From contig CAYQQT010000049.1 in NCBI GenBank assembly GCA_964419375.1, positions 1 to 12,642 on the forward strand: a stretch of 12,642 nt of DNA, in the 5' to 3' direction. This DNA comes from an uncultured bacterium. GTDB taxonomy: Bacteria; Methylomirabilota; Methylomirabilia; Rokubacteriales; CSP1-6. The notes under the pieces were generated by a model. That model ran no database searches. It worked only from the letters and a program-made list of their open reading frames with translations, and was not told the DNA's origin. The translations under genes and the position numbers were made by a program. This document shows positions 4,244 to 12,642 of the stretch, in pieces (within the stretch, counting starts at the first letter, position 1; each line of letters starts with the position of its first letter).

Positions 4244-5321
4244 CTATGGCCGCACGATCGAAGCGTCAAGGGGGCGACCAAGGTTGGCCGCGGCATGGGC
4301 GCCCGCGCGGCTGCCCCAGTGGTACGCCTCCTCGAAGAGCGAGAACCCGGAGAGATCGGAATGGGCGAGGTGCACGGGACCGCGCAGCGCGTCCACGGCC
4401 GCCCGTCGCGCGGCCCCGCACACGAAGCCGACCTCGGGCCGGACCATCGCGTGGCCGTAGGGCGCCACGTCGATACGGCTGGCCCATCGCCTGCCCCATC
4501 GCCACGCCCGCGCCGAGACCGACGCCGGCGCCCGCGGCGCCGTCTTCGTTGGCGGCCGCGATCGGGATCGACTGCGCGGTCTGGTACTGGGAGTAGCGCG
4601 TCATGTCGCCCACGATGCCCATGCCGATGCGCTCGTCGAGGCGCTTCCGCAGCTCCTCGGGCAGCGAGACGTTCTGCACCTGGAAGGCCTCGAGTGACAA
4701 TCCGAGATCGCCGAAGCCGGCGCGCACCTTGTCGGCAACGGCCGCGCCGAGCTCCACCTGGTTGGCGGCCATGTCGAGGAAGGGCACGCCGCTCTCGCCG
4801 AAGTGGTCGGTGAGGACGGCCACCACGGAGTTGCGCAGCTGGCCCTCGAGATCGCCGATGGTGTAGGTGTCGCGCGTGCCCGACACCTTGGTGAAGAAGA
4901 CCTGGGGGGAGGTGATCTCGAAGGAGTAGATGCCGAAGGCGCGCATGCGGACGGCGCCGAACTCCTTGTCGCGGATGGTGATGGGATTGGACGTCCCCCA
5001 CTTCTGGTTGATGCGCAGCCGCGTGAAGAAGAAGTAGACGTCGCTCTTGAAGGGCGACTCGAAGAGCTTGTCCCAGTGCGCGAGGTCGGTGAGCAGCGGG
5101 ATGTTCTGCGTCTTGATCGTGTGCTGTCCGGGCCCGAAGAGGTCCGCCGCCTTGCCCTGGTGCGCGAAGAGCGCGGCCTGCGTGTCGCGCACGATGAGCT
5201 GGGCGCCCTGCTGGATCTCGGCATCGCGCATGGGGAAGCGCCAGGCGAGAACCTCGTCGCTGTCCTCGGTCCACTGGATGATGTCGATGAACTGCTTCTT
5301 GAGGAAGTCGAGGAATCCCAT
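4244..5321 (-). pseudogene. SPFH/band-7 (flotillin-like, YdjI-type) protein gene with a +1 frameshift near 4470-4485 (either a disrupted gene or a sequence error)
   Basis: The ATG at 5321 is preceded by GGGGAGG with a 5-nt spacer. The N-terminus MGFLDFLKKQFIDIIQWTE is typical of the YdjI-like SPFH family. The domain frame has high third-position GC down to the Gly-rich linker AGVGLGAGVAMGQAMGQ, after which third-position GC collapses and the translation turns Arg-rich. Coding signal resumes one nucleotide out of phase (RIDVAPYGHAMV...IVRP) and ends at TAG 4244-4246. Confidence 0.7.
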
Positions 5322-5360
5322 GCGCACCTCCCCTCACAGACTCGACATCAGATGCTCGCG

Positions 5361-5390
5361 GGTCTAGGTGCCCGCGCGGGGAAGTGTCAA
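5361..5390 (-). promoter_or_regulatory. Candidate sigma70-type promoter for the SPFH operon
   Basis: On the minus strand there is a -35 TTGACA (5390..5385), an 18-nt spacer, and a -10-like TAGACC (5366..5361). The predicted 5' UTR of about 30 nt contains the GGAGG Shine-Dalgarno sequence. Confidence 0.35.
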
Positions 5391-5413
5391 GAAAAGGTCG
5401 GGCCGGCGCGTGT

Positions 5414-5442
5414 TTGACCGCGCGGGAGCGTTCGTGTAGATT
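5414..5442 (+). promoter_or_regulatory. Candidate sigma70-type promoter TTGACC-17-TAGATT for the histone-like gene, placing the TSS at or next to the ATG (leaderless)
   Basis: TTGACC lies at 5414-5419, followed by a 17-nt spacer, TAGATT at 5437-5442, and the ATG at 5450 (7 nt after the -10). There is no Shine-Dalgarno sequence. Confidence 0.45.
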
Positions 5443-5449
5443 CCGCGGC

Positions 5450-5680
5450 ATGAAGAAACGTGCTCCCGCGAAGAAGCAGGCTGCCGCGCGCAAGCCGGCG
5501 GCGATGAAGAAGGCCCCCTCGAAGCCCACGGCGGCGAAGTCGGCCGCGAAGAAGCCCGCCCCCCGCGCCGCCGCCGCGCCGAGCAGCAGGCGCCCGCAGG
5601 CGCCCGCGCAGAGGGCCGGGTACACCCCCCCCCCGCTGAAGACCGACGGCTTCCCGGCGTTCCGCTACCCGCCGCAATAG
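5450..5680 (+). CDS. Small highly basic Lys/Ala/Pro-rich protein (histone H1-like / nucleoid-associated type)
   Basis: The 76-aa product begins MKKRAPAKKQAAARKPAAMKKAPSKPTAAKSAAKKPAP and ends in a non-basic Pro-rich tail. Third-position GC is high from the ATG at 5450, whereas the upstream in-frame ATG at 5384 sits in sequence with low third-position GC. The stop codon is TAG at 5678-5680. Confidence 0.6.
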   Translation: MKKRAPAKKQAAARKPAAMKKAPSKPTAAKSAAKKPAPRAAAAPSSRRPQAPAQRAGYTPPPLKTDGFPAFRYPPQ

Positions 5681-5705: not shown

Positions 5706-6110
5706 ATGTCCGGGCTGATCGGGCTGGCGCCCGCCGTGGCGCTCGCCTGCACGGCCCTCCCAGCGGCGGCCGCCGCCACTGCCGCGCTCACCGCCGTGAC
5801 CTTCAACCTCCTGCATGGCGGCGCCACCTCCGGTCTCACCGGCGAGGACCAGGAGCTCGAGTTGCGCCCCGACGACACCGGGGCCACGGTGTGGCAGCGC
5901 GTGGAGGCGCCCGCGCCCACCGCCTCCCGGCGCGTCGACTTCATGTTCCTCGTGCCCGGCACGCAGTACACGGCCGAGGTGCGCAGCAGCCGCGTCGTCA
6001 TCAACGCGCCCCGGCACTTGTCCGACGGCCGCACCCTCTGGCCGTCCGATCACTACGGCGTGCTCGGCGAGATGGTGATCGTCCCCCGCTCGCAGAGCGC
6101 GCGGCCGTGA
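5706..6110 (+). CDS. Small secreted protein carrying only the N- and C-terminal motifs of the endonuclease/exonuclease/phosphatase (EEP) fold
   Basis: The ORF is 134 aa with an N-terminal signal-like hydrophobic region (LIGLAPAVALACTALPAAAAA). An EEP-type first motif (VTFNLLHGG) and last motif (WPSDHYGVLGEMVI) are both present, but only about 70 aa separate them. Third-position GC is high throughout. Confidence 0.5.
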   Translation: MSGLIGLAPAVALACTALPAAAAATAALTAVTFNLLHGGATSGLTGEDQELELRPDDTGATVWQRVEAPAPTASRRVDFMFLVPGTQYTAEVRSSRVVINAPRHLSDGRTLWPSDHYGVLGEMVIVPRSQSARP

Positions 6111-6856
6111 CGCGCAGGTCGCTGACGATCATCCTCGCGCTGCTCTCCTTCGTCGGCTGCGCGGCCTTCGAGCGCACCACCGTGAACTGGTGGCAGGCGA
6201 GCCGCGAGCCGTCGGGGCAGGCGCCAAATCCGGCAATCACCCGGGAGGCGGTGGTCCAGGTCTACGCCGCGCGCACGGTGGGCTGGCGCGGAGTGTTCGG
6301 CGTCCACACGTGGGTGGCGGTCAAGCGCGAGGGGGCGGCGGCGTACCGGCGCTACGAAGTCATCGGCTGGGGCGTCGAGCGCGGCGCGCCCGCGGTGCGC
6401 GTCGATCGCACCGGTCCCGACAACGACTGGTTCGGGGCCAGGCCGGAGCTGCTCGTCGACGTGCGTGGCGCTGATGTCGACGCGCTCATCACGAGAATCG
6501 AGGCGGCGGTGGCCGCCTATCCGTATCCCTCGACCTACCGGACGTGGCCGGGACCGAACAGCAACACCTTCGTCGCCCACGTGGGCCGCGCGGTCCCCGA
6601 GCTGCGCCTGGTGCTGCCGCCCACGGCGATCGGCAAGGACTTCCTGCCCGGCGGCGCGTTGATAGCGCCGAGTCCGGCGGGACGCGGACTACAGCTTTCA
6701 TTCCTCGGGGTTGCCGGTATTCTCGCGGGCTGGGAGGAGGGGCTGGAGATCAACGTGCTCGGGCTCACCTTCGGCATCGACGTGAAAGCCCCCGCGCTCA
6801 AGCTGCCAGTGGCCGGACGGGTGGGCGTTACGCCGGCTTTACACGGAGGACGTTGA
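6107..6856 (+). CDS. Hypothetical lipoprotein
   Basis: The GTG at 6107 overlaps the upstream TGA (GTGA). The lipoprotein signal LTIILALLSFVGC contains a lipobox (FVGC). About 225 aa of mature protein follow (WVAVKREG, PGPNSNTFVAHVGR), for which I cannot name a family with confidence. The stop codon is TGA at 6854-6856. Confidence 0.6.
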   Translation: MTRRSLTIILALLSFVGCAAFERTTVNWWQASREPSGQAPNPAITREAVVQVYAARTVGWRGVFGVHTWVAVKREGAAAYRRYEVIGWGVERGAPAVRVDRTGPDNDWFGARPELLVDVRGADVDALITRIEAAVAAYPYPSTYRTWPGPNSNTFVAHVGRAVPELRLVLPPTAIGKDFLPGGALIAPSPAGRGLQLSFLGVAGILAGWEEGLEINVLGLTFGIDVKAPALKLPVAGRVGVTPALHGGR

Positions 6857-7919
6857 AGGCGCTCACCGGCTTCGAGAAGCCCTTGAGCGTGAGCTCCCCC
6901 ACCGGCTCCACCTCGACGAGGTCTTCCACCGCGCCCCACAGCCGGCGCGAGATGAGGATCTCCCCCGCCTTCGCTTCGCCGCACAGCCGCGCGGCGAGAT
7001 TGGTGACGATGCCGATGGCGCCATAGTCCCAGCGGCCTTCGAAGCCGATGGCGCCGATGGTGGCATAGCCCTGGGCGATGCCCACGCCGAAGGCGAGGTC
7101 GTAGCCGCGCTTGCGCCAGCCTCCCATGAGACGCTGCACGCCCTCACGCATGGCGAGGGCCATGCGCACCGCCCGCTCCTGCGCGTTCGGCACCGGCACG
7201 GGGTCGTTGAAGAAGATCATCATGCCGTCGCCGGTGAAGCGCTCCAGCGTGCCCTCGTGCTCGAGGATGATCCGGCCCATGGCCGCGTGGTAGTCGCGCA
7301 GCACGCCCATCACCTCTTCCGGGTCGGCCGTCTCCGCGAAGGCGGTGAACCCGCGCAGGTCGAGAAAGGCCACCGTGATGTCGCGCCGGTGGCTCTTGAG
7401 CGGATCCTCGGCGTCGCCGCTGAGGATGGCTTCCGCGAGCGCGGGCGAGAAGAACCGCTTGAGACGGCCCAGCCGCTCCAGCTGCGTCACCTGCTCCTGC
7501 ACGCGCCGCTCGAGGGTCCCGTTGAGGTCGGCGAGCCGGTCCCACAGCTCCTTGACCCGCAGCAGCGAGCGCACGCGCGCGAGCATCTCGGGCTGGTTGA
7601 TGGGCTTGGTGAGGAAATCGTCGGCCCCCGCCTCGATGCCCTTCACGCGCTCCTGCACGGGATCGAGCGCGGTCACCATGACCACGGGGAGCATGGCGGT
7701 GGCGGGATTGTCGCGCACCTTGCGGCACACCTCGTAACCGCTGAGCCCGGGCATCATCACGTCGAGCAGCACGAGGTCGGGGCGCTCGCGCTCGATCCTC
7801 TCGAGCGCCTCCACGCCGTTGGCGGCGGTGCTCACCGTATAGCCCTTCACGGTGAGGAGATCGGCGAGGAGCTTGACGTTGACGGGCGTGTCGTCGACGA
7901 CCAGGATGCGCGCGCTCAT
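6828..7919 (-). CDS. Response regulator with C-terminal class III adenylate/guanylate cyclase (CHD) output domain
   Basis: The start is ATG at 7919 (MSARILVVDD). The receiver domain contains LLDVMMPG and GADDFLTKP. The cyclase domain contains ITVAFLDLRGFT (metal-binding Asp) and RFTGDGMMIFF. The ATG overlaps the stop codon of the upstream receiver gene (ATGA). Confidence 0.85.
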   Translation of the reverse strand: MSARILVVDDTPVNVKLLADLLTVKGYTVSTAANGVEALERIERERPDLVLLDVMMPGLSGYEVCRKVRDNPATAMLPVVMVTALDPVQERVKGIEAGADDFLTKPINQPEMLARVRSLLRVKELWDRLADLNGTLERRVQEQVTQLERLGRLKRFFSPALAEAILSGDAEDPLKSHRRDITVAFLDLRGFTAFAETADPEEVMGVLRDYHAAMGRIILEHEGTLERFTGDGMMIFFNDPVPVPNAQERAVRMALAMREGVQRLMGGWRKRGYDLAFGVGIAQGYATIGAIGFEGRWDYGAIGIVTNLAARLCGEAKAGEILISRRLWGAVEDLVEVEPVGELTLKGFSKPVSAFNVLRVKPA

Positions 7920-8293
7920 GGCCGCGGCAGGGCCGCCTGCACCGCCGCCAGGAACGCCTTCACGTTGATAGGCTTGGACTGGTAGCCGTCGAAGCCCGCC
8001 GCGAGGATCTTCGAGCGGTCCGTGCTCATGGCGGAGGCGGTGACGGCCAGGACCGGGATCGCGCGCGTGGATTCGTCGGCGCGGATCTGCGCCAGCGCTT
8101 CGATGCCGCTGATGCCCGGGAGCTGGATGTCCATGAGGATGAGCGCCGGCCGCAGCTCGCGCGCGAGCCGGACGCCCTCCTCGCCCGTCTCCGCCTCCGC
8201 GAGGCGGTAGCCCTTGAAGGCGAGCACGTCGCGGACGAGCTTGCGGTTTTTCTCGTTGTCCTCGACGATCAGGATGAGCTCGCCCGCCATCAC
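7916..8293 (-). CDS. Single-domain CheY-like response regulator (receiver only)
   Basis: The roughly 125-aa product contains ILIVEDNEKNRKL, LILMDIQLPGISG and GFDGYQSKP. Its start (GTG 8293 or ATG 8290) overlaps the kinase stop codon at 8290-8292. Confidence 0.85.
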   Translation of the reverse strand: MMAGELILIVEDNEKNRKLVRDVLAFKGYRLAEAETGEEGVRLARELRPALILMDIQLPGISGIEALAQIRADESTRAIPVLAVTASAMSTDRSKILAAGFDGYQSKPINVKAFLAAVQAALPRP

Positions 8294-10641
8294 GCCACCG
8301 GGATGGTGAAGGTGAAGGTGGATCCCTCACCCACCTGGCTCTTCACCCACATGCGGCCACCGTGCAGCTCGACGAACCGCCGCGCGAGCGCGAGGCCGAG
8401 GCCGGTGCCCTCGCGCTTCTTCGCGTAGTCGGTGCCCACCTGCCGGAACTCCTCGAAGACCGCCTCCTGATCTTCGGGGGCGATACCCACCCCGGTGTCA
8501 GTGACGGAGATCTCGGCGGCGCCGTCCACCCGCGCTGCGCGCACCTGGATGCGGCCGCCCTCGGGCGTGAACTTCACCGCGTTGGACAGCAGATTCAGGA
8601 GAACCTGCTTGATCTTGCGCTCGTCGCCGCGCACGGTGCCCAGCCGTGCGTCCACCGCCGTGGCGAGCGCGAGGCCGTGCCGCGCCGCCCGCTCGCGCAC
8701 GAGGACGAGCGCGTTGTCGATGGCCTGCGGCAGATCGAACTCCGCCGCCTCCAGCTCCATGCGCCCCGCCTCGATCTTCGACAGGTCGAGGATGTCGTTG
8801 ATGAGCGACAGCAGGTGCCGGCCCGACGACAGGATGTCGTTCAGATACTCCTCCTGCTTTTCGTTCAGCTCGCCGAACATCCGCTCCAGCAGGACCTCCG
8901 AGAAGCCGATCACCGCGTTGAGGGGCGTGCGCAGCTCGTGCGACATGTTGGCGAGGAACTGCGACTTGTGCTCGTTGGCGATCTCGAGCTGCCGCGTCTT
9001 CTCCTGCGTCTCGTTGAGAAGGCGCACGTTCTCGATGGCGATGACGGCCTGGTCGGCGAAGGTCTTCACGAGGCGAACTTGCTTGTCGCTGAAGGGCCGC
9101 ACCTCCTTGCGGTGGAAGCTGAGGGCACCGACGAGCTCGCCCTCCTTCAGCATCGGCACGGCGAGAGCGGATCGCATCCCTTCGCGCCGATAGACTTCGG
9201 GCAGCGAGAATCGGGGGTCGGTCTGGACGTCGGCGCTGTGCACTGGCGCCAGCTCGAGGCCGACCCGTCGCAACGGCGTTTCGGGGCCGGGTGGGACGAC
9301 CATCGCGCGCACTTCGTCGGCGAATGGCGCCTCCGAGCTGATGGCGGCGAGACGGAAGGCGCCGTGTTCGAACCTCCACACCGCGCCGTACGCCGCCTCG
9401 CAGAGGCGCAGTGCGTTGGCGAGAATTCGGTCGAAGACGGGCTGAACGTTGGTGGGGGAGCTGGAAATGACGCTCAGCACCTCGCCCGTCGCCGTCTGTT
9501 GCTCGAGCGCCTCGGTGAGCTCGCGCGTACGCTCGTCCACCCGTTGCTCGAGGGTGGCGTACGACTCCTGCAGCTGCTCCGTCATCTGGTTGAACTGCTC
9601 GGCGAGCACCTCGATCTCGTCGCCCGTCTTCAGCTCCAGCCGCTGCCGCAGCTCGCCGGCGCCGATCTTGGCGGCGCCTTCCTGCAGCGCGCGGATGGGC
9701 TGCACCATGCGACGGGCGAGGATCAGGCTTGCCACGATGGACATGGCGACGCCGAGCACGATGAGGATGACCGTGCGCTGAATGGAGGCGCGCAGCGTCG
9801 CGAACGCCTCCCCGAGGGGCTGTTCGGCAAACACGAACCAGCGCAGCGACGGGATGTCGGCGTGCGCGGTGAGCACGCGATGCCCCTGGAGGTCGCGCGC
9901 GATGGGCACAGCGGCGGCGCCACCGCCGCCCCTGCCGCGGAAGATCGCCGCCGTGACCTGGTCGAGAGCGGCCATGTTCGTCTTCTGCAGCACGAGGCTG
10001 ATGTCGGGATGGGCCACCAGCGCCCCCGCCCCGTCCACCACGTAGGCACGGCCGGCGGTGCCGATCTTGATGCGGGAGACCACGTCCCAGATGAACTTGA
10101 GATTCACCTCCGCCACGATGACGCCACCCCCGCCCGTCTGCGCCATCGCGATGCTCATGTACGGCTCCGACTCCTTGCGGAAGTACACCGGGCCGTAATA
10201 CGTCCGTGCCGCGCGCGCCTGCTGGAACTTGGGGTCCGTGGAGAAGTCGGTGCCGCTCCCCGCCACGTCCATCGCCAGGCGCGACACGCGCAGCTGCTCC
10301 TTGCCCGCCGCATCGAGGTAGCTGAGCTCGGTGATGGCGGGCACCTGGCGCAGGAGGCGGAGGAAGTCGACCCGTCGCTGCTCGATGGCGCCGGGCGCGG
10401 GCACGAGCTGCGGCTGCGTCGTCCAGCCGATCTGCCGCTCGATCTCCTTGACGAAGCTCTCGATCTGCGCGGCGGCGGCCGCCGCCTTCTCGCGCTGCAG
10501 GCTGACGAGCGCCGCCTGGTTCTCCTGGTAGGAGAAGTAGAGCTCGAGCGCGCCGCTCGCGAGGAGGGCGCCGCTCACCAGTCCCACGAAGACGACGACG
10601 TACTTGCGAAAGAGCCGGCCGCGCGGCATCAGCGGAGGCAT
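8290..10641 (-). CDS. Sensor histidine kinase: TM, Cache-like periplasmic domain, TM, HAMP, GAF, HisKA, HATPase_c
   Basis: The 783-aa product has two hydrophobic segments (YVVVFVGLVSGALLASGAL and VILIVLGVAMSIVASLIL) flanking about 250 aa. It then has a HAMP-like linker, a GAF-like region, the H-box SHELRTPLNAV, the N-box LLSNAVKFT, and the G-boxes DTGVGI and GTGLGLALARRFVELHGG. Confidence 0.85.
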   Translation of the reverse strand: MPPLMPRGRLFRKYVVVFVGLVSGALLASGALELYFSYQENQAALVSLQREKAAAAAAQIESFVKEIERQIGWTTQPQLVPAPGAIEQRRVDFLRLLRQVPAITELSYLDAAGKEQLRVSRLAMDVAGSGTDFSTDPKFQQARAARTYYGPVYFRKESEPYMSIAMAQTGGGGVIVAEVNLKFIWDVVSRIKIGTAGRAYVVDGAGALVAHPDISLVLQKTNMAALDQVTAAIFRGRGGGGAAAVPIARDLQGHRVLTAHADIPSLRWFVFAEQPLGEAFATLRASIQRTVILIVLGVAMSIVASLILARRMVQPIRALQEGAAKIGAGELRQRLELKTGDEIEVLAEQFNQMTEQLQESYATLEQRVDERTRELTEALEQQTATGEVLSVISSSPTNVQPVFDRILANALRLCEAAYGAVWRFEHGAFRLAAISSEAPFADEVRAMVVPPGPETPLRRVGLELAPVHSADVQTDPRFSLPEVYRREGMRSALAVPMLKEGELVGALSFHRKEVRPFSDKQVRLVKTFADQAVIAIENVRLLNETQEKTRQLEIANEHKSQFLANMSHELRTPLNAVIGFSEVLLERMFGELNEKQEEYLNDILSSGRHLLSLINDILDLSKIEAGRMELEAAEFDLPQAIDNALVLVRERAARHGLALATAVDARLGTVRGDERKIKQVLLNLLSNAVKFTPEGGRIQVRAARVDGAAEISVTDTGVGIAPEDQEAVFEEFRQVGTDYAKKREGTGLGLALARRFVELHGGRMWVKSQVGEGSTFTFTIPVA

Positions 10642-10669
10642 GACCGCATTCTAGCCGGAATCAGCGGCA

Positions 10670-11152
10670 TCACTCCGCTTCGCCGAGCACCCGGTCGATG
10701 GCCTTCTCCAGGCAGCGCTTGATCTCGTCGCGGCAGGCGCGGAAGGTGTCCTCGCCCTGCCCCGCGGGGTCGCCGATGTCCCCCGCCTCGCCCGCGAGCT
10801 CGCGCAGCGTGACGACGGTGGGCGCGCCCGCCGCCGCCAGCTCGCCCACGATGCGCTTCTGCTCCACCGTCATGGTCACGATGAGGTCGGCGCCCGTAAT
10901 GAGGTCGGGGTGAGCCCGGAGCGCGGTGGAGACGACCGCATCCTCGGCCACGAGGAGACCGTCCTCCTTGAGCGCCAAACGCGCGTCGAGGGAGGCGATC
11001 ATGCCGTCACGCGCCCACGGCGCCACCCCCGCCGAGCGCACGCGCACGCGATCGCCGGCGCCGCGCGCGGCGAGCATGCGGTCGAGGAGCAGCTGCGCCA
11101 TCACGCTGCGGGCGGTGTTGGCGTGGCACACGAACAGCAGCGCTTTAGCCAC
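10670..11152 (-). CDS. Low-molecular-weight protein tyrosine phosphatase / ArsC-like (CX5R) family protein
   Basis: The start is GTG at 11152 (VAKALLFVCHANTARS), giving the P-loop C-X5-R-S. A DP-loop (IGDPAG) and a C-terminal C-X6-C pair (CRDEIKRC) follow. The GTG overlaps the 3' end of the upstream thioredoxin-fold gene by 8 nt. Confidence 0.8.
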   Translation of the reverse strand: MAKALLFVCHANTARSVMAQLLLDRMLAARGAGDRVRVRSAGVAPWARDGMIASLDARLALKEDGLLVAEDAVVSTALRAHPDLITGADLIVTMTVEQKRIVGELAAAGAPTVVTLRELAGEAGDIGDPAGQGEDTFRACRDEIKRCLEKAIDRVLGEAE

Positions 11153-12188
11153 GCGTGTCCGGCAGCGGCTTGTAGTACGGCTGGCCGCCGCCCACCCACG
11201 CCGCCAGCATCTCGCGGAACTGCGGGCCCATGGGATCGATGCCGCGCATGGGCATGCTGCCGCGCCGGATGGTGAAGTCATGCGGGGCCAGCTCGCCCGC
11301 CTTCACGAAATGGCGCTCGGCGGCGGCCTTCCTCGACTGCTGGAAGAGCCACTCCGCGAGCCCGAACTCGGCGCGCGCCTGCTGATCGGACGCGGTGGGG
11401 ACGGGCAGCAGCGCGCGCGCCTCCTTGGGCGCGAAGCCCCCGCCCTCCCCGCGCACCCACCTGCGGAGCGCGTTGAGATGGATCTCCGCGGTGAGACCCG
11501 TGATCTGCTTGTAGGTGTCGGTGCCGAAAGCGACGTCGTGGGGCCGCACGATGCGTCCCTTCTCGTCGATCCACAGCACGGTGGGAACGTTGACGATGTT
11601 GTAGAGCTCGGCGAGCGCGTGGCGCGTGTCGATCAGCGACGGGTGCGCGGGGCGCGCCGCCTCGATCCACGGCCGCGCGTCCTCCGCGCTCTTGTCGAGG
11701 GCGACCGTGATCACGGTGAAGCCGAAGCCCTTCAGCTCCTCGTACATGGCCTGCCACACCGGCAGGTCGAGGCGGCACCCTCACCAGGAGGCGTAAGCGA
11801 CGAGCAGCACCTTCTTGCCGCGATGCTCGGAGAGCGAGTGCAGCCGCCCCGCGAGATCGGGCAGCGTGAAGTCCGGCGCTTCCAGCGACCCCAGCGCCTG
11901 CGCGCGCTCGTGCGCGGACACGCCCAGGTACGCCGCCGACTCCGCCACGTCGAGCGCGAGCGGCCGGTCCAGGGCGGCCGCCAGCGCGGCGAGATCGATG
12001 CCGCGCTCGTCGGCGAGCGCGGCGGCATCCGCCACCGGCACGCACATGCTGTCGCTGCAGAGCTGGCCGCCGTGAAACTCCCAGCCGAGCGCGGTGTGCA
12101 CCGCCTCCGCGGGCACGCGCACGCGCCCGCCATCGATGGTGGCGGGCACCACCACCGCGCGTCCCTCGTCGAGAATGGTGAAGGTCAT
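11145..12188 (-). CDS. Candidate selenoprotein: cytoplasmic TlpA/ResA-type thioredoxin-fold thiol-disulfide oxidoreductase with in-frame UGA (Sec) in the redox motif and N- and C-terminal extensions
   Basis: The two ORF-track entries 11781..12188 and 11145..11759 are in the same frame and separated only by TGA 11781-11783. Third-position GC is high on both sides. The sequence around the TGA reads GKKVLLVAYASW-[TGA]-GCRLDLPVWQAMYEELKGFGFTVITV, and VPTVLWIDEKGRIV follows later, matching the TlpA/ResA pattern (FWASW-CxxC-K...P...Y...G...V..V). A SECIS-like hairpin starts 9 nt after the TGA. The start is ATG at 12188, 2 nt after the NUDIX stop codon. Confidence 0.7.
11738..11772 (-). promoter_or_regulatory. 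Bacterial SECIS-like stem-loop immediately 3' of the in-frame UGA
   Basis: The mRNA reads UGA GGGUGCCG [CCUCG] A [CCUGCC] GGUGU [GGCAGG] CCAUGUA [CGAGG]. The upper stem is 6 bp (11766-11761 with 11755-11750), with a 5-nt apical loop GGUGU 21-25 nt after the UGA. The lower stem is 5 bp (11772-11768 with 11742-11738), with an asymmetric internal loop between the stems. Confidence 0.5.
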
Positions 12189-12190
12189 GC

Positions 12191-12642
12191 TTACCCCCAG
12201 GCCCAGACGGGCTGCTCGAAGTGGTCGACACGCGTGGGACGGCCGTGGAGCACGACCTCCCGGAGCTGGAAGATCACGGCCGCGGTGGGCGCGTGCACGA
12301 GCGTGGACAGGATCGGCACCTGGATGACGGGCCGGTCGCTCTCGGGAATGCTGATGAGCCGCGGCACGTCGGGATGGTCGAGGTCGCTCACGGGCACGCG
12401 GAAGACGGCGGCCACCTCCTCGGGATTGGGTGTGAGCTCCACCGGCTCATCGCCACCCGCCCACACCACCACCGGCGTGATGATATAGCCCGAGCGCGTG
12501 CCGTAGTCGTCGAGCACGCCGAGGACCGCGCCCTCGTCGAGGGCGAGGCCGAGCTCCTCGTGCAGCTCGCGGAGGGCGGCGCGCTCGGCCGTCTCCCCCG
12601 CGTCGATGCGGCCGCCCGGCAGCGCCCACTGGCGCGCGTGCG
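12191..12642 (-). CDS. NUDIX hydrolase (5'-partial; start lies beyond the window)
   Basis: A canonical Nudix box, [24 protein letters not shown] (GX5EX7REUXEEXGU), is encoded at about 12540-12610. It lies in frame with, and upstream of, the GTG at 12517 that the ORF track lists as the start. The stop codon is TAA at 12191-12193. Confidence 0.8.

What the first reader, a model, noticed from the sequence alone, without database searches (positions are those of the whole stretch)
6828..12188. Tightly coupled minus-strand chain: Sec-thioredoxin-like gene, LMW-PTP/ArsC-like, Cache-HAMP-GAF kinase, CheY, receiver-cyclase
Five genes on one strand have junctions of -8 nt (11145-11152), 28 nt, -1 or -4 nt (8290-8293) and -4 nt (7916-7919), so they are almost certainly one transcript. 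A NUDIX gene ends 2 nt upstream. The gene content suggests, by inference, a signalling unit in which a selenium-dependent thiol oxidoreductase and a Cys-based phosphatase sit upstream of an extracytoplasmic-sensing kinase. The kinase has two cognate receivers, one of which outputs cAMP or cGMP. I do not recognise this combination (Sec-thioredoxin plus LMW-PTP plus two-component system plus class III cyclase) as a described system. It could couple redox or selenium status or tyrosine-phosphate signalling to cyclic-nucleotide production.
Basis: inference. Interest (0 to 1): 0.7.

Follow-up and report, generated by a model that had tools for sequence, protein, structure and literature searches.

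The report
Selenoprotein–phosphatase genes joined to cAMP two-component genes
In a soil Rokubacteria genome, a known but uncharacterised selenocysteine oxidoreductase gene and a small cysteine phosphatase gene sit in one tightly packed gene string with an ordinary sensor kinase, two receivers and a cyclase; the pairing recurs in this phylum, but the two halves also occur apart, so it is a modest functional lead and not a new signalling system.

Summary
All five genes, their domains and every junction are as described, and the NUDIX gene 2 nt upstream makes it at least six genes. The in-frame TGA is a real selenocysteine codon. It aligns with Cys in WCGC homologues, is TGA in 78 of 80 species loci, and is followed by a hairpin. 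TGA also ends three neighbouring genes, so the recoding is site-specific. The protein belongs to the already catalogued "UGC-containing Prx-like/TlpA" selenoprotein family. The phosphatase is closest to YwlE, a protein arginine phosphatase, and lacks the ArsC cysteine relay. The cyclase is closest to the adenylate cyclase CyaB, with a conserved Lys→Arg change.

The organism is a Rokubacteria (Methylomirabilota) bacterium. Among species loci that carry the phosphatase gene, 31 also carry the kinase–CheY–cyclase trio and 12 lack it. Sixteen loci, almost all labelled as other phyla, carry the selenoprotein gene alone. The trio also occurs upstream, 4–5 kb away behind opposite-strand genes, or in unrelated contexts.

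So this is two separable modules that are often fused and probably co-transcribed. A selenoprotein–phosphatase redox partnership is plausible. An obligatory redox-to-cAMP system is not supported.

The parts
12191..12642 (-). NUDIX hydrolase gene, CoA-pyrophosphatase-like. Its 5' end is cut by the window edge. It is the first gene of the string visible here.
   Evidence: Pfam NUDIX, E 6e-16. The best NCBIfam match is CoA pyrophosphatase PRK10707, E 7e-14, below its cut-off on this partial sequence. The stop is 2 nt before the next ATG. It lies upstream of the selenoprotein gene in most Rokubacteria loci.
11145..12188 (-). Selenoprotein gene of 347 codons. It encodes an N-terminal beta-rich domain with a conserved CX4C, a ResA/TlpA-type thioredoxin fold with a (Y/W)ASW-U-G-C redox motif, and a C-terminal helical domain. 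No signal peptide is evident.
   Evidence: Pfam AhpC-TSA 2e-17 and Redoxin 2.5e-14. NCBIfam NF041054 WAxxUGC_long scores 240 bits against a cut-off of 300. Full-length Cys homologues are 50-61% identical and carry WCGC. An AlphaFold model of the 60%-identical Cys homologue P0005 has pLDDT 94, and its core matches ResA with TM 0.8.
11781..11783 (-). In-frame TGA read as selenocysteine (residue 136).
   Evidence: It aligns with the invariant first Cys of WCGC in Cys homologues. The codon is TGA in 78 of 80 species loci across several phyla, and TGC in the Cys forms. The residues between the TGA and the next possible start codon (GCRxDLP) are conserved in frame. TGA is the ordinary stop of the phosphatase, kinase and CheY genes here.
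11750..11766 (-). SECIS-like hairpin CCUGCC-GGUGU-GGCAGG. The stem starts 15 nt after the UGA, and the loop contains GU.
   Evidence: The sequence was read. The stem bases, including the third codon positions of Leu CTG and Gln CAG, are invariant in 20 diverse Sec forms, while the loop third positions vary. Two of three Cys forms have CAA, which weakens the stem. Caveats: the local folding energy is not exceptional (z -0.23), there is no Rfam match, and the stem does not vary, so covariation cannot be assessed.
10670..11152 (-). Low-molecular-weight Cys phosphatase gene (160 aa), YwlE-like. It has the P-loop CHANTARS, the GDIGDP acid loop, and a C-terminal RACRDEIKRC pair.
   Evidence: Pfam LMWPc 1e-19. 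The closest solved structures are the YwlE arginine phosphatases 4pic (1e-13) and 1zgg. ArsC models score far below their cut-offs. The motifs are conserved in 59 orthologues.
8290..10641 (-). Sensor histidine kinase (783 aa) with the layout TM - dCache_1 (extracytoplasmic) - TM - HAMP - GAF - HisKA - HATPase_c.
   Evidence: Pfam domains and coordinates are. The two hydrophobic segments flanking dCache were read from the translation. Orthologues vary in GAF copy number, from 783 to more than 1100 aa.
7916..8293 (-). Single-domain CheY-like receiver (125 aa).
   Evidence: Pfam Response_reg 9e-26. The acceptor Asp (MDIQLP), Thr (AVTAS) and Lys (SKP) motifs were read. It lies next to the kinase gene in 75 loci and next to the cyclase gene in 91.
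6828..7919 (-). Receiver plus class III nucleotide cyclase (363 aa), a probable adenylate cyclase.
   Evidence: Pfam Response_reg 8e-32 and Guanylate_cyc 5e-17. The catalytic domain is closest to the P. aeruginosa CyaB adenylate cyclase 3r5g, 2e-36. The metal Asp residues (FLDLRGFT, GDG), the adenine-pairing Asp (WDYGAIG) and the Asn/Arg (TNLAAR) are present. The substrate Lys is Arg (LERFTGDG), as in 94 of 102 orthologues.

Best explanation
The region is one co-directional, translationally coupled gene string in a Rokubacteria (Methylomirabilota) genome. It is assembled from two evolutionarily separable modules.

Module 1 is NUDIX (CoA-pyrophosphatase-like), a UGC-type ResA/TlpA-fold selenoprotein, and a YwlE-like low-molecular-weight Cys phosphatase. 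It appears to be a cytoplasmic thiol/selenol module. The selenoprotein most likely acts as a dedicated reductant that keeps, or resets, the oxidation-prone catalytic cysteine of the phosphatase. It might instead act on the phosphatase's conserved C-terminal CX6C pair. This partnership is inferred, not shown.

Module 2 is an ordinary branched two-component pathway. A membrane kinase with an extracytoplasmic dCache sensor and a cytoplasmic GAF domain would phosphorylate a receiver-cyclase that makes cAMP. A CheY-like single-domain receiver would serve as a second acceptor, either a phosphate sink or a branch. These steps are inferred from domain content and conserved adjacency.

In this genome, and in roughly 70% of related species that have the phosphatase gene, module 2 lies in the same locus as module 1, usually directly behind it. 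The two are then probably co-expressed. The coupling is facultative and lineage-specific. Any flow of redox information into cAMP output is possible but undemonstrated.
For: - Anatomy and junctions.
- Selenocysteine. The family is known: (NF041054) and reviews PMC9312934, PMC13188914 and PMC2398784.
- Fold.
- The phosphatase is YwlE-like, with the P-loop Thr kept in all 59 orthologues. The second P-loop Cys is absent in 40 of 59.
- YwlE is inactivated by oxidation of its catalytic Cys (PMC5506225).
- The Sec->phosphatase 8-nt overlap recurs in 14 of 24 adjacent cases.
- Modularity: L001, L016 and others have NUDIX-Sec-LMWPc directly followed by DUF3750(-). The window, L005, L008, L024 and L098 have the three-gene cassette inserted at exactly that point.
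- Counts from the species scan: 31 with the trio, 12 without, 2 with selenoprotein->kinase and no phosphatase, and 16 with the selenoprotein alone, almost all labelled as other phyla.
- Cyclase-anchored scan: 12 linked (77-80% identity) against 7 unlinked (72-76%), the latter in other contexts.
- The downstream flank differs in 18 of 21 full clusters, so the cluster outlasts general synteny.
Against: - No experiment or expression data exist; the organism is uncultured.
- The selenoprotein-phosphatase partnership rests only on adjacency inside one phylum. In about 20 species an SDR gene sits between the two genes. Cys and Sec homologues in other phyla have no phosphatase neighbour.
- The string also includes a NUDIX gene and, in relatives, an aldolase gene with no obvious link. 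Tight packing may therefore just reflect a compact genome.
- A TAGAAT box lies 7 nt before the kinase ATG and the spacer has no Shine-Dalgarno sequence. This leaves room for a separate kinase transcript.
- The cyclase's nucleotide specificity is uncertain because of the Lys->Arg change.
Confidence: 0.55

Rival explanations
1. Integrated signalling system. The selenoprotein and phosphatase act on, or are controlled by, the kinase pathway, so that redox, selenium or protein-phosphate status sets cAMP output.
For: - The two halves stay near each other through four different architectures: directly fused; with an SDR gene inserted; with the trio upstream of the selenoprotein gene (L062, L085); and with selenoprotein->kinase and no phosphatase (L023, L026, L104).
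- The trio group most similar to the window's (cyclase 77-80% identical) is linked in 12 of 12 evaluable loci.
- The cluster persists where the flanks differ.
Against: - 12 species keep the selenoprotein-phosphatase pair with no trio within at least 7 kb.
- The trio exists in unrelated contexts.
- In L027, L030 and L086 opposite-strand genes lie between the halves.
- No fusion proteins and no shared regulator were found.
- The output is a cyclase, not a transcription factor, so it gives no direct route to control the operon.
Confidence: 0.2
2. No functional relation. The kinase-CheY-cyclase cassette simply landed at the 3' end of a housekeeping operon in an ancestor, and the linkage persists by phylogenetic inertia.
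For: - The cassette shows clean presence/absence at one site.
- The linkage is confined to one phylum.
- In the closer relatives the surrounding genes are also syntenic: DUF3750, the endonuclease/exonuclease/phosphatase (EEP) gene, peptidase M20 and GNAT.
- The string contains unrelated genes (NUDIX, aldolase, SDR).
Against: - The adjacency survives at 65-75% protein identity where the downstream flank has changed.
- Rearranged versions keep the modules close (L062, L085, L023, L026).
- The junctions remain overlapping or very short.
Confidence: 0.25
3. Arsenate detoxification pair. The LMW phosphatase-fold protein is a thioredoxin-coupled ArsC and the selenoprotein is its reductant.
For: There are weak NCBIfam matches to arsenate reductase models (E 2e-5 and 3.5e-5). 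Thioredoxin-coupled ArsC enzymes have the LMW-PTP fold (established knowledge).
Against: - The scores are far below the cut-offs (24.9 against 215 bits).
- The Cys82/Cys89 relay of thioredoxin-coupled ArsC is absent. The only other cysteines are at 139 and 146.
- The nearest solved relatives are the YwlE phosphatases.
- No arsR, arsB or acr3 gene is in the window or in the inspected relatives.
Confidence: 0.04
4. The TGA is a genuine stop. On this reading the thioredoxin-like gene is split or a pseudogene (135-aa and 204-aa ORFs), as automatic gene callers annotate it.
For: Public gene calls split it. The hairpin's folding energy is not exceptional.
Against: - The TGA sits exactly at the catalytic Cys position of full-length homologues.
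- It is conserved as TGA in 78 of 80 species, with both flanks under protein-level conservation, including the codons between the TGA and the next start.
- The family is a curated selenoprotein family.
- The phylum is reported to have very large selenoproteomes (PMC13188914).
Confidence: 0.02

Closest known systems
UGC-containing Prx-like / TlpA disulfide reductase family selenoprotein (Zhang & Gladyshev GOS study, PMC2398784; reviews PMC9312934 and PMC13188914; NCBIfam NF041054 'ResA-like WAxxUGC motif-containing protein')
   Same: It has an AhpC-TSA/Redoxin thioredoxin fold, a U-G-C redox motif at the CxxC position preceded by (W/Y)ASW, about 350 residues, Cys homologues with CGC, and no known function.
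   Different: It scores 240 bits against the NF041054 cut-off of 300, with U replaced by C in the query. The first motif residue is Tyr here, not Trp. I found no description of a genomic partnership with a YwlE-like phosphatase or a two-component/cyclase cassette.
YwlE, the protein arginine phosphatase of Bacillus and Geobacillus (PDB 4pic, 1zgg)
   Same: It has the LMW-PTP fold, a CX5R(S) P-loop with Thr at the position that sets phosphoarginine selectivity in YwlE, and a D-P general-acid loop. YwlE is known to be switched off by oxidation of its catalytic Cys (PMC5506225).
   Different: Similarity is modest (E 1e-13). The P-loop is CHANTARS, so the second Cys is missing in 40 of 59 orthologues. 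It has an extra conserved CX6C in the last helix. No McsB-type kinase is known in this organism. The substrate is untested.
Response-regulator adenylate cyclases of two-component pathways, such as cyanobacterial CyaC and myxobacterial CyaA/CyaB (named from memory). The closest catalytic domain is P. aeruginosa CyaB, PDB 3r5g.
   Same: A receiver domain is fused to a class III cyclase domain with intact metal, transition-state and adenine-pairing residues. It is encoded next to a sensor kinase and a second, single-domain receiver.
   Different: Arg replaces the substrate-defining Lys, and this is conserved in the lineage. The kinase is a separate dCache-HAMP-GAF protein and is not fused. The whole cassette is embedded in a selenoprotein-phosphatase operon.
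ResA/TlpA/StoA extracytoplasmic thiol-disulfide oxidoreductases
   Same: The closest solved fold is ResA (TM 0.8 to ResA), and the catalytic motif is in the same place.
   Different: It has no signal peptide or membrane anchor, so it is probably cytoplasmic. It has extra N-terminal (CX4C) and C-terminal helical domains. Its motif is a three-residue U-G-C in place of CxxC. No cytochrome-maturation genes are nearby.

Membership tests
UGC-containing Prx-like/TlpA selenoprotein family | An in-frame UGA at the position of the catalytic Cys of Cys-containing homologues, forming a U-G-C motif | tested here: met
   The motif ASW-U-GC-R aligns with the invariant ASW-C-GC-R. The codon is TGA in 78 of 80 species loci.
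UGC-containing Prx-like/TlpA selenoprotein family | A thioredoxin-fold AhpC-TSA/Redoxin domain | tested here: met
   Pfam PF00578 at 63.6 bits and PF08534 at 53.7 bits, both above their cut-offs. The model of a 60%-identical homologue matches ResA.
UGC-containing Prx-like/TlpA selenoprotein family | Reaches the curated NCBIfam NF041054 (WAxxUGC_long) score | tested here: not met
   239.9 bits against a cut-off of 300, with U written as C. It is the top hit by a wide margin. I therefore file the protein under the broader literature family and not as an NF041054 equivalog.
UGC-containing Prx-like/TlpA selenoprotein family | A bacterial SECIS hairpin shortly downstream of the UGA | tested here: inconclusive
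   A 6-bp GC-rich stem with a GGUGU loop starts 15 nt after the UGA and is invariant at synonymous sites. However, the energy z-score is -0.23, covariation cannot be assessed, and there is no Rfam match.
UGC-containing Prx-like/TlpA selenoprotein family | Sec-decoding machinery (selA, selB, selC, selD) in the same genome | not testable with these tools
   Only a 12.6-kb contig is available. A Methylomirabilota MAG is reported to carry 63 selenoprotein genes (PMC13188914).
LMW-PTP superfamily (PF01451) | A CX5R(S/T) P-loop and a D-P general-acid loop | tested here: met
   CHANTARS and GDIGDP are present. Pfam scores 71.4 bits against a cut-off of 23.2.
YwlE-type protein arginine phosphatase | Thr at the fifth P-loop position, the selectivity residue in YwlE | tested here: met
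   It aligns with the Thr of YwlE CTGNTCRS and is present in all 59 orthologues. The role of this residue is taken from the literature (PMC5506225, and from memory of Fuhrmann et al. 2013).
YwlE-type protein arginine phosphatase | Phosphoarginine phosphatase activity and a cognate McsB-type arginine kinase | not testable with these tools
   This needs an enzyme assay and the whole genome.
Thioredoxin-coupled ArsC (LMW-PTP-type arsenate reductase) | The Cys10-Cys82-Cys89 disulfide relay, and reaching the curated model score | tested here: not met
   Only the P-loop Cys and Cys139/Cys146 are present. NF010053 scores 24.9 bits against a cut-off of 215.
Two-component system with class III cyclase output | A kinase with HisKA and HATPase_c, and receivers with an acceptor Asp | tested here: met
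   The H-box SHELRTPLN and the receiver motifs were read.
Two-component system with class III cyclase output | The canonical class III catalytic set: two metal Asp residues, substrate Lys and Asp, and transition-state Asn and Arg | tested here: not met
   Five of the six residues are present. The substrate Lys is Arg (LERFTGDG against CyaB DKFVGDC), as in 94 of 102 orthologues. The domain itself is well above the Pfam cut-off. Specificity is therefore uncertain, but membership of the fold is not.
Two-component system with class III cyclase output | Phosphotransfer from this kinase to these receivers, and phosphorylation-dependent cyclase activity | not testable with these tools
   Only conserved adjacency is available, in 75 and 91 loci.

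The most novel reading that the evidence does not exclude
The YwlE-like enzyme is a phosphatase for N-linked phosphate, meaning phosphoarginine or phosphohistidine. Its activity would be gated by the neighbouring selenoprotein, and in Rokubacteria it would reset the adjacent histidine kinase or another N-phosphorylated component. Cellular redox or selenium status would then directly tune cAMP synthesis. That would give the UGC selenoprotein family its first physiological role.
Probability: 0.1. Interest if true: 0.7.

Novelty: new variant of a known kind. Interest (0 to 1): 0.35.

Why it matters
The UGC-type Prx-like/TlpA selenoproteins have been catalogued since 2008 without any functional clue. 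A recurrent, translationally coupled pairing with a YwlE-like cysteine phosphatase in a selenoprotein-rich, uncultured soil phylum gives a concrete and cheap hypothesis to test in vitro: a selenol reductant dedicated to an oxidation-sensitive phosphatase.

The frequent fusion with a dCache kinase and a receiver-adenylate cyclase suggests where that redox chemistry might meet second-messenger signalling. The practical point is that gene callers split this gene in two, so the cluster is invisible in standard annotation.

The evidence also shows that the two halves live apart in many genomes. This should be treated as a lead and not as a new class of signalling system.

Tried and rejected
- **Rfam.** Searches of the whole window and of the TGA region found no SECIS or other RNA family. 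The only matches were chance-level.
- **Single-sequence folding** of the post-UGA region was not better than shuffles. The SECIS argument therefore rests on position, loop content and invariance.
- **Covariation.** The stem never varies, so I did not compute it.
I modelled the 60%-identical Cys homologue P0005 instead. The PDB fold search was dominated by the thioredoxin core, so the N- and C-terminal domains remain unassigned.
- **ArsC reading** of the phosphatase: rejected.
- **Alternative genetic code** (TGA as a sense codon throughout): rejected, because TGA ends three neighbouring genes.
- **Literature searches** for the motif, for Rokubacteria selenoproteins and for the gene combination found only the family listings, with no description of this cluster.
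- **Fusion proteins.** I looked for fusions linking the modules among the homologue architectures and found none.
- **Promoter scan.** The sigma-70 scan found nothing in this 70% G+C DNA, which is uninformative for this phylum.

Full report
**Observation**

The window is 70% G+C. Its minus strand carries an uninterrupted string of genes whose coordinates match the finding exactly:

| Gene | Coordinates | Junction with the next gene |
|---|---|---|
| NUDIX (5' end cut by the window) | stop at 12191 | 2-nt gap |
| Thioredoxin-like reading frame, in-frame TGA at 11781-11783 | 12188-11145 | 8-nt overlap |
| LMW phosphatase, GTG start | 11152-10670 | 28-nt spacer |
| Histidine kinase | 10641-8290 | GTGATG overlap (-4 or -1 nt) |
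| CheY-like receiver | 8293-7916 | ATGA overlap (-4 nt) |
| Receiver-cyclase | 7919-6828 | none (last gene of the string) |

No terminator-like site lies on that strand. The string is at least six genes, not five. In the closest relatives an HpcH/HpaI aldolase gene sits immediately before NUDIX on the same strand.

**Source**

The best species-level match is a Candidatus Rokuibacteriota MAG contig (95% protein identity). Nearly all close relatives are labelled Rokubacteria or Methylomirabilota. The phosphatase sequence is on record from a 12,642-bp NCBI contig, which is the length of the window.

**The selenoprotein**

A database search with U written as C returned two classes of hits. One class is full-length proteins of about 345 aa, 50-61% identical. 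The other is many fragments of about 200 aa, 72-96% identical, that cover only the part after the TGA. This is the signature of selenoprotein genes split by gene callers.

- In alignment, the TGA falls on the first Cys of an invariant ASW-C-G-C-R motif.
- Across 80 species-representative loci the codon is TGA in 78, TGC in one and unresolved in one. The Sec forms occur in Rokubacteria, Binatia, Chloroflexota, Armatimonadota and others.
- TGA is the normal stop of the phosphatase, kinase and CheY genes here, so the recoding is site-specific.
- Fifteen nucleotides after the UGA lies the hairpin CCUGCC-GGUGU-GGCAGG. Its stem, including synonymous third positions, is invariant in 20 diverse Sec forms, while the loop third positions vary. 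Two of three Cys forms weaken it. Its folding energy alone is not remarkable and Rfam has no matching model.
- NCBIfam's best hit is NF041054, 'ResA-like WAxxUGC motif-containing protein', at 240 bits against a cut-off of 300.
- A Methylomirabilota MAG has been reported with 63 selenoprotein genes.
- An AlphaFold model of a 60%-identical Cys homologue is confident (pLDDT 94). Its core matches ResA with TM 0.8. It also has an extra N-terminal beta-rich domain carrying an invariant CX4C and a C-terminal helical domain.
- No signal peptide is evident, so unlike ResA and TlpA it is probably cytoplasmic (read from the sequence).

**The phosphatase**

- It is a bona fide LMWPc domain.
- Its nearest solved relatives are the YwlE protein arginine phosphatases (4pic at 1e-13, 1zgg). 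ArsC structures and models match only marginally.
- The P-loop CHANTARS aligns with YwlE CTGNTCRS and keeps the Thr that confers phosphoarginine selectivity in YwlE. The D-P loop is present.
- The ArsC Cys82/Cys89 relay is absent.
- Across 59 orthologues the P-loop is CHANT[A/C]RS, and the second Cys is absent in 40.
- A C-terminal RxCRDEIxRC pair is nearly invariant.
- YwlE is known to be inactivated by oxidation of its catalytic cysteine (PMC5506225).

**The two-component genes**

- The kinase has two hydrophobic segments flanking a dCache_1 domain, then HAMP, GAF, HisKA and HATPase_c.
- Both receivers have intact acceptor motifs.
- The cyclase domain is closest to the P. aeruginosa CyaB adenylate cyclase (2e-36). 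It keeps both metal Asp residues, the adenine-pairing Asp, and the Asn/Arg pair.
- It has Arg in place of the substrate Lys, as do 94 of 102 orthologues.
- cAMP is the likeliest product, but this is not certain.

**Neighbourhood test, anchored on the selenoprotein (80 species loci)**

| Category | Loci |
|---|---|
| Phosphatase gene within 4 kb downstream, plus the kinase-CheY-cyclase trio in the locus | 31 |
| Phosphatase gene, but no trio within at least 7 kb | 12 |
| Selenoprotein gene directly followed by the kinase gene, no phosphatase | 2 |
| Neither partner (almost all labelled as other phyla, such as Binatia, Chloroflexota and Armatimonadota) | 16 |
| Contig too short to judge | 19 |

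Cys-form homologues in other bacteria likewise stand alone.

Several architectures occur:
- **Compact form**, as in the window: L005, L008, L024 and L098.
- **SDR inserted.** An SDR gene lies between the selenoprotein and phosphatase genes in about 20 species.
- **Trio upstream** of the selenoprotein gene: L062 and L085.
- **Trio 4-5 kb downstream**, beyond an opposite-strand DUF3750 gene: L027, L030 and L086.

Close relatives such as L001 and L016 have NUDIX-selenoprotein-phosphatase followed directly by DUF3750(-) and the endonuclease/exonuclease/phosphatase (EEP) gene(-). The window has the three-gene cassette inserted at exactly that point. The downstream flank differs in 18 of 21 full clusters, so the cluster is more persistent than general synteny.

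**Neighbourhood test, anchored on the cyclase (80 metagenome loci)**

Of 19 loci with enough upstream sequence, 12 carry the selenoprotein and/or phosphatase gene. All 12 have cyclases 77-80% identical to the window's. The other 7 do not, and their cyclases are 72-76% identical. Several of this second group sit behind a zinc-ribbon-cyclase-ATPase-TPR gene of about 1100 aa, or next to unrelated genes. The trio is therefore a self-contained module that also lives elsewhere.

**Junctions in relatives**

By the aligned start positions:
- Selenoprotein->phosphatase is -8 nt in 14 of 24 adjacent cases.
- Kinase->CheY is mostly -19 to -14 nt.
- CheY->cyclase is mostly -4 to +9 nt.
- Phosphatase->kinase is -13 to +70 nt.

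**Interpretation**

What is shown: a real gene string with a real selenocysteine codon, a conserved trio, and a lineage-specific but facultative fusion of two modules.

What is inferred:
- Co-transcription.
- The kinase feeding both receivers, with cAMP as the output.
- The selenoprotein serving the phosphatase as a reductant. This rests on the tight pairing, on the known oxidation sensitivity of YwlE-type enzymes, and on the loss of the protective second P-loop Cys in most orthologues.

That idea is neither excluded nor supported. The many genomes in which the halves are apart argue against an obligatory system.

**Novelty**

Each part belongs to a known kind, and the selenoprotein family is already catalogued. 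I found no description of the recurrent selenoprotein-YwlE-like phosphatase pairing, or of its frequent fusion with a dCache kinase and receiver-adenylate cyclase cassette. I rate it a new variant of a known kind, of moderate interest. It is mainly a testable clue to the function of an orphan selenoprotein family.

Noticed in passing
window 5706-6110 (+): This is a remnant of an endonuclease/exonuclease/phosphatase (EEP) gene. It matches residues 1-54 and 226-302 of the 304-aa orthologue in L001 in a single frame. About 170 central residues have therefore been lost in frame, and there is no Pfam hit.
   Followed up: partly
window 4266-5327 (-): In this SPFH/Band_7_1 gene the last ~70 residues are Arg-rich. 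They do not match the double zinc-ribbon tail of the L001 orthologue. This could be a frameshift or a different C-terminus.
   Followed up: partly
window 6828-6856: The receiver-cyclase gene and the convergent DUF3750 gene overlap at their 3' ends by 29 nt, leaving no room for a terminator. A related contig has the same arrangement with a 32-nt overlap.
   Followed up: no
window 10642-10669 (-): The 28-nt spacer before the kinase ATG has no Shine-Dalgarno sequence. It contains TAGAAT ending 7 nt before the ATG. This might be an internal promoter giving a leaderless kinase transcript.
   Followed up: no
window 6828-7919 (-), motif LERFTGDG: The class III cyclase has Arg where the substrate-defining Lys normally sits. 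Arg is conserved in 94 of 102 orthologues, and 5 have His. Nucleotide specificity may be unusual.
   Followed up: partly
window 10670-11152 (-), residues 137-146: The phosphatase carries a conserved RxCRDEIxRC (CX6C) in its last helix. YwlE lacks it, and its role is unknown.
   Followed up: partly
L047 10815-11808, and about 20 other Rokubacteria loci: A short-chain dehydrogenase/reductase gene is inserted between the selenoprotein and phosphatase genes in many species.
   Followed up: partly
L138 3619-7062; also L128, L146 and L147: A second kinase-CheY-receiver-cyclase group (cyclase 72-76% identical) lies directly behind a gene of about 1100 aa encoding zinc-ribbon, class III cyclase, ATPase and TPR domains. 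The selenoprotein-phosphatase pair is absent there.
   Followed up: partly
window 5384-5680 (+): This is a small Lys/Ala-rich ORF with a weak histone H1-like (HC2) match, E 0.004, below the Pfam cut-off. It may be a nucleoid-type protein or an artefact of the high G+C content.
   Followed up: no
window 11145-12188 and public gene calls (L001, L165-L167): Automatic annotation splits the selenoprotein gene into ORFs of 134-135 aa and 200-208 aa. As a result the family, and this cluster, are hidden in standard annotations.
   Followed up: yes
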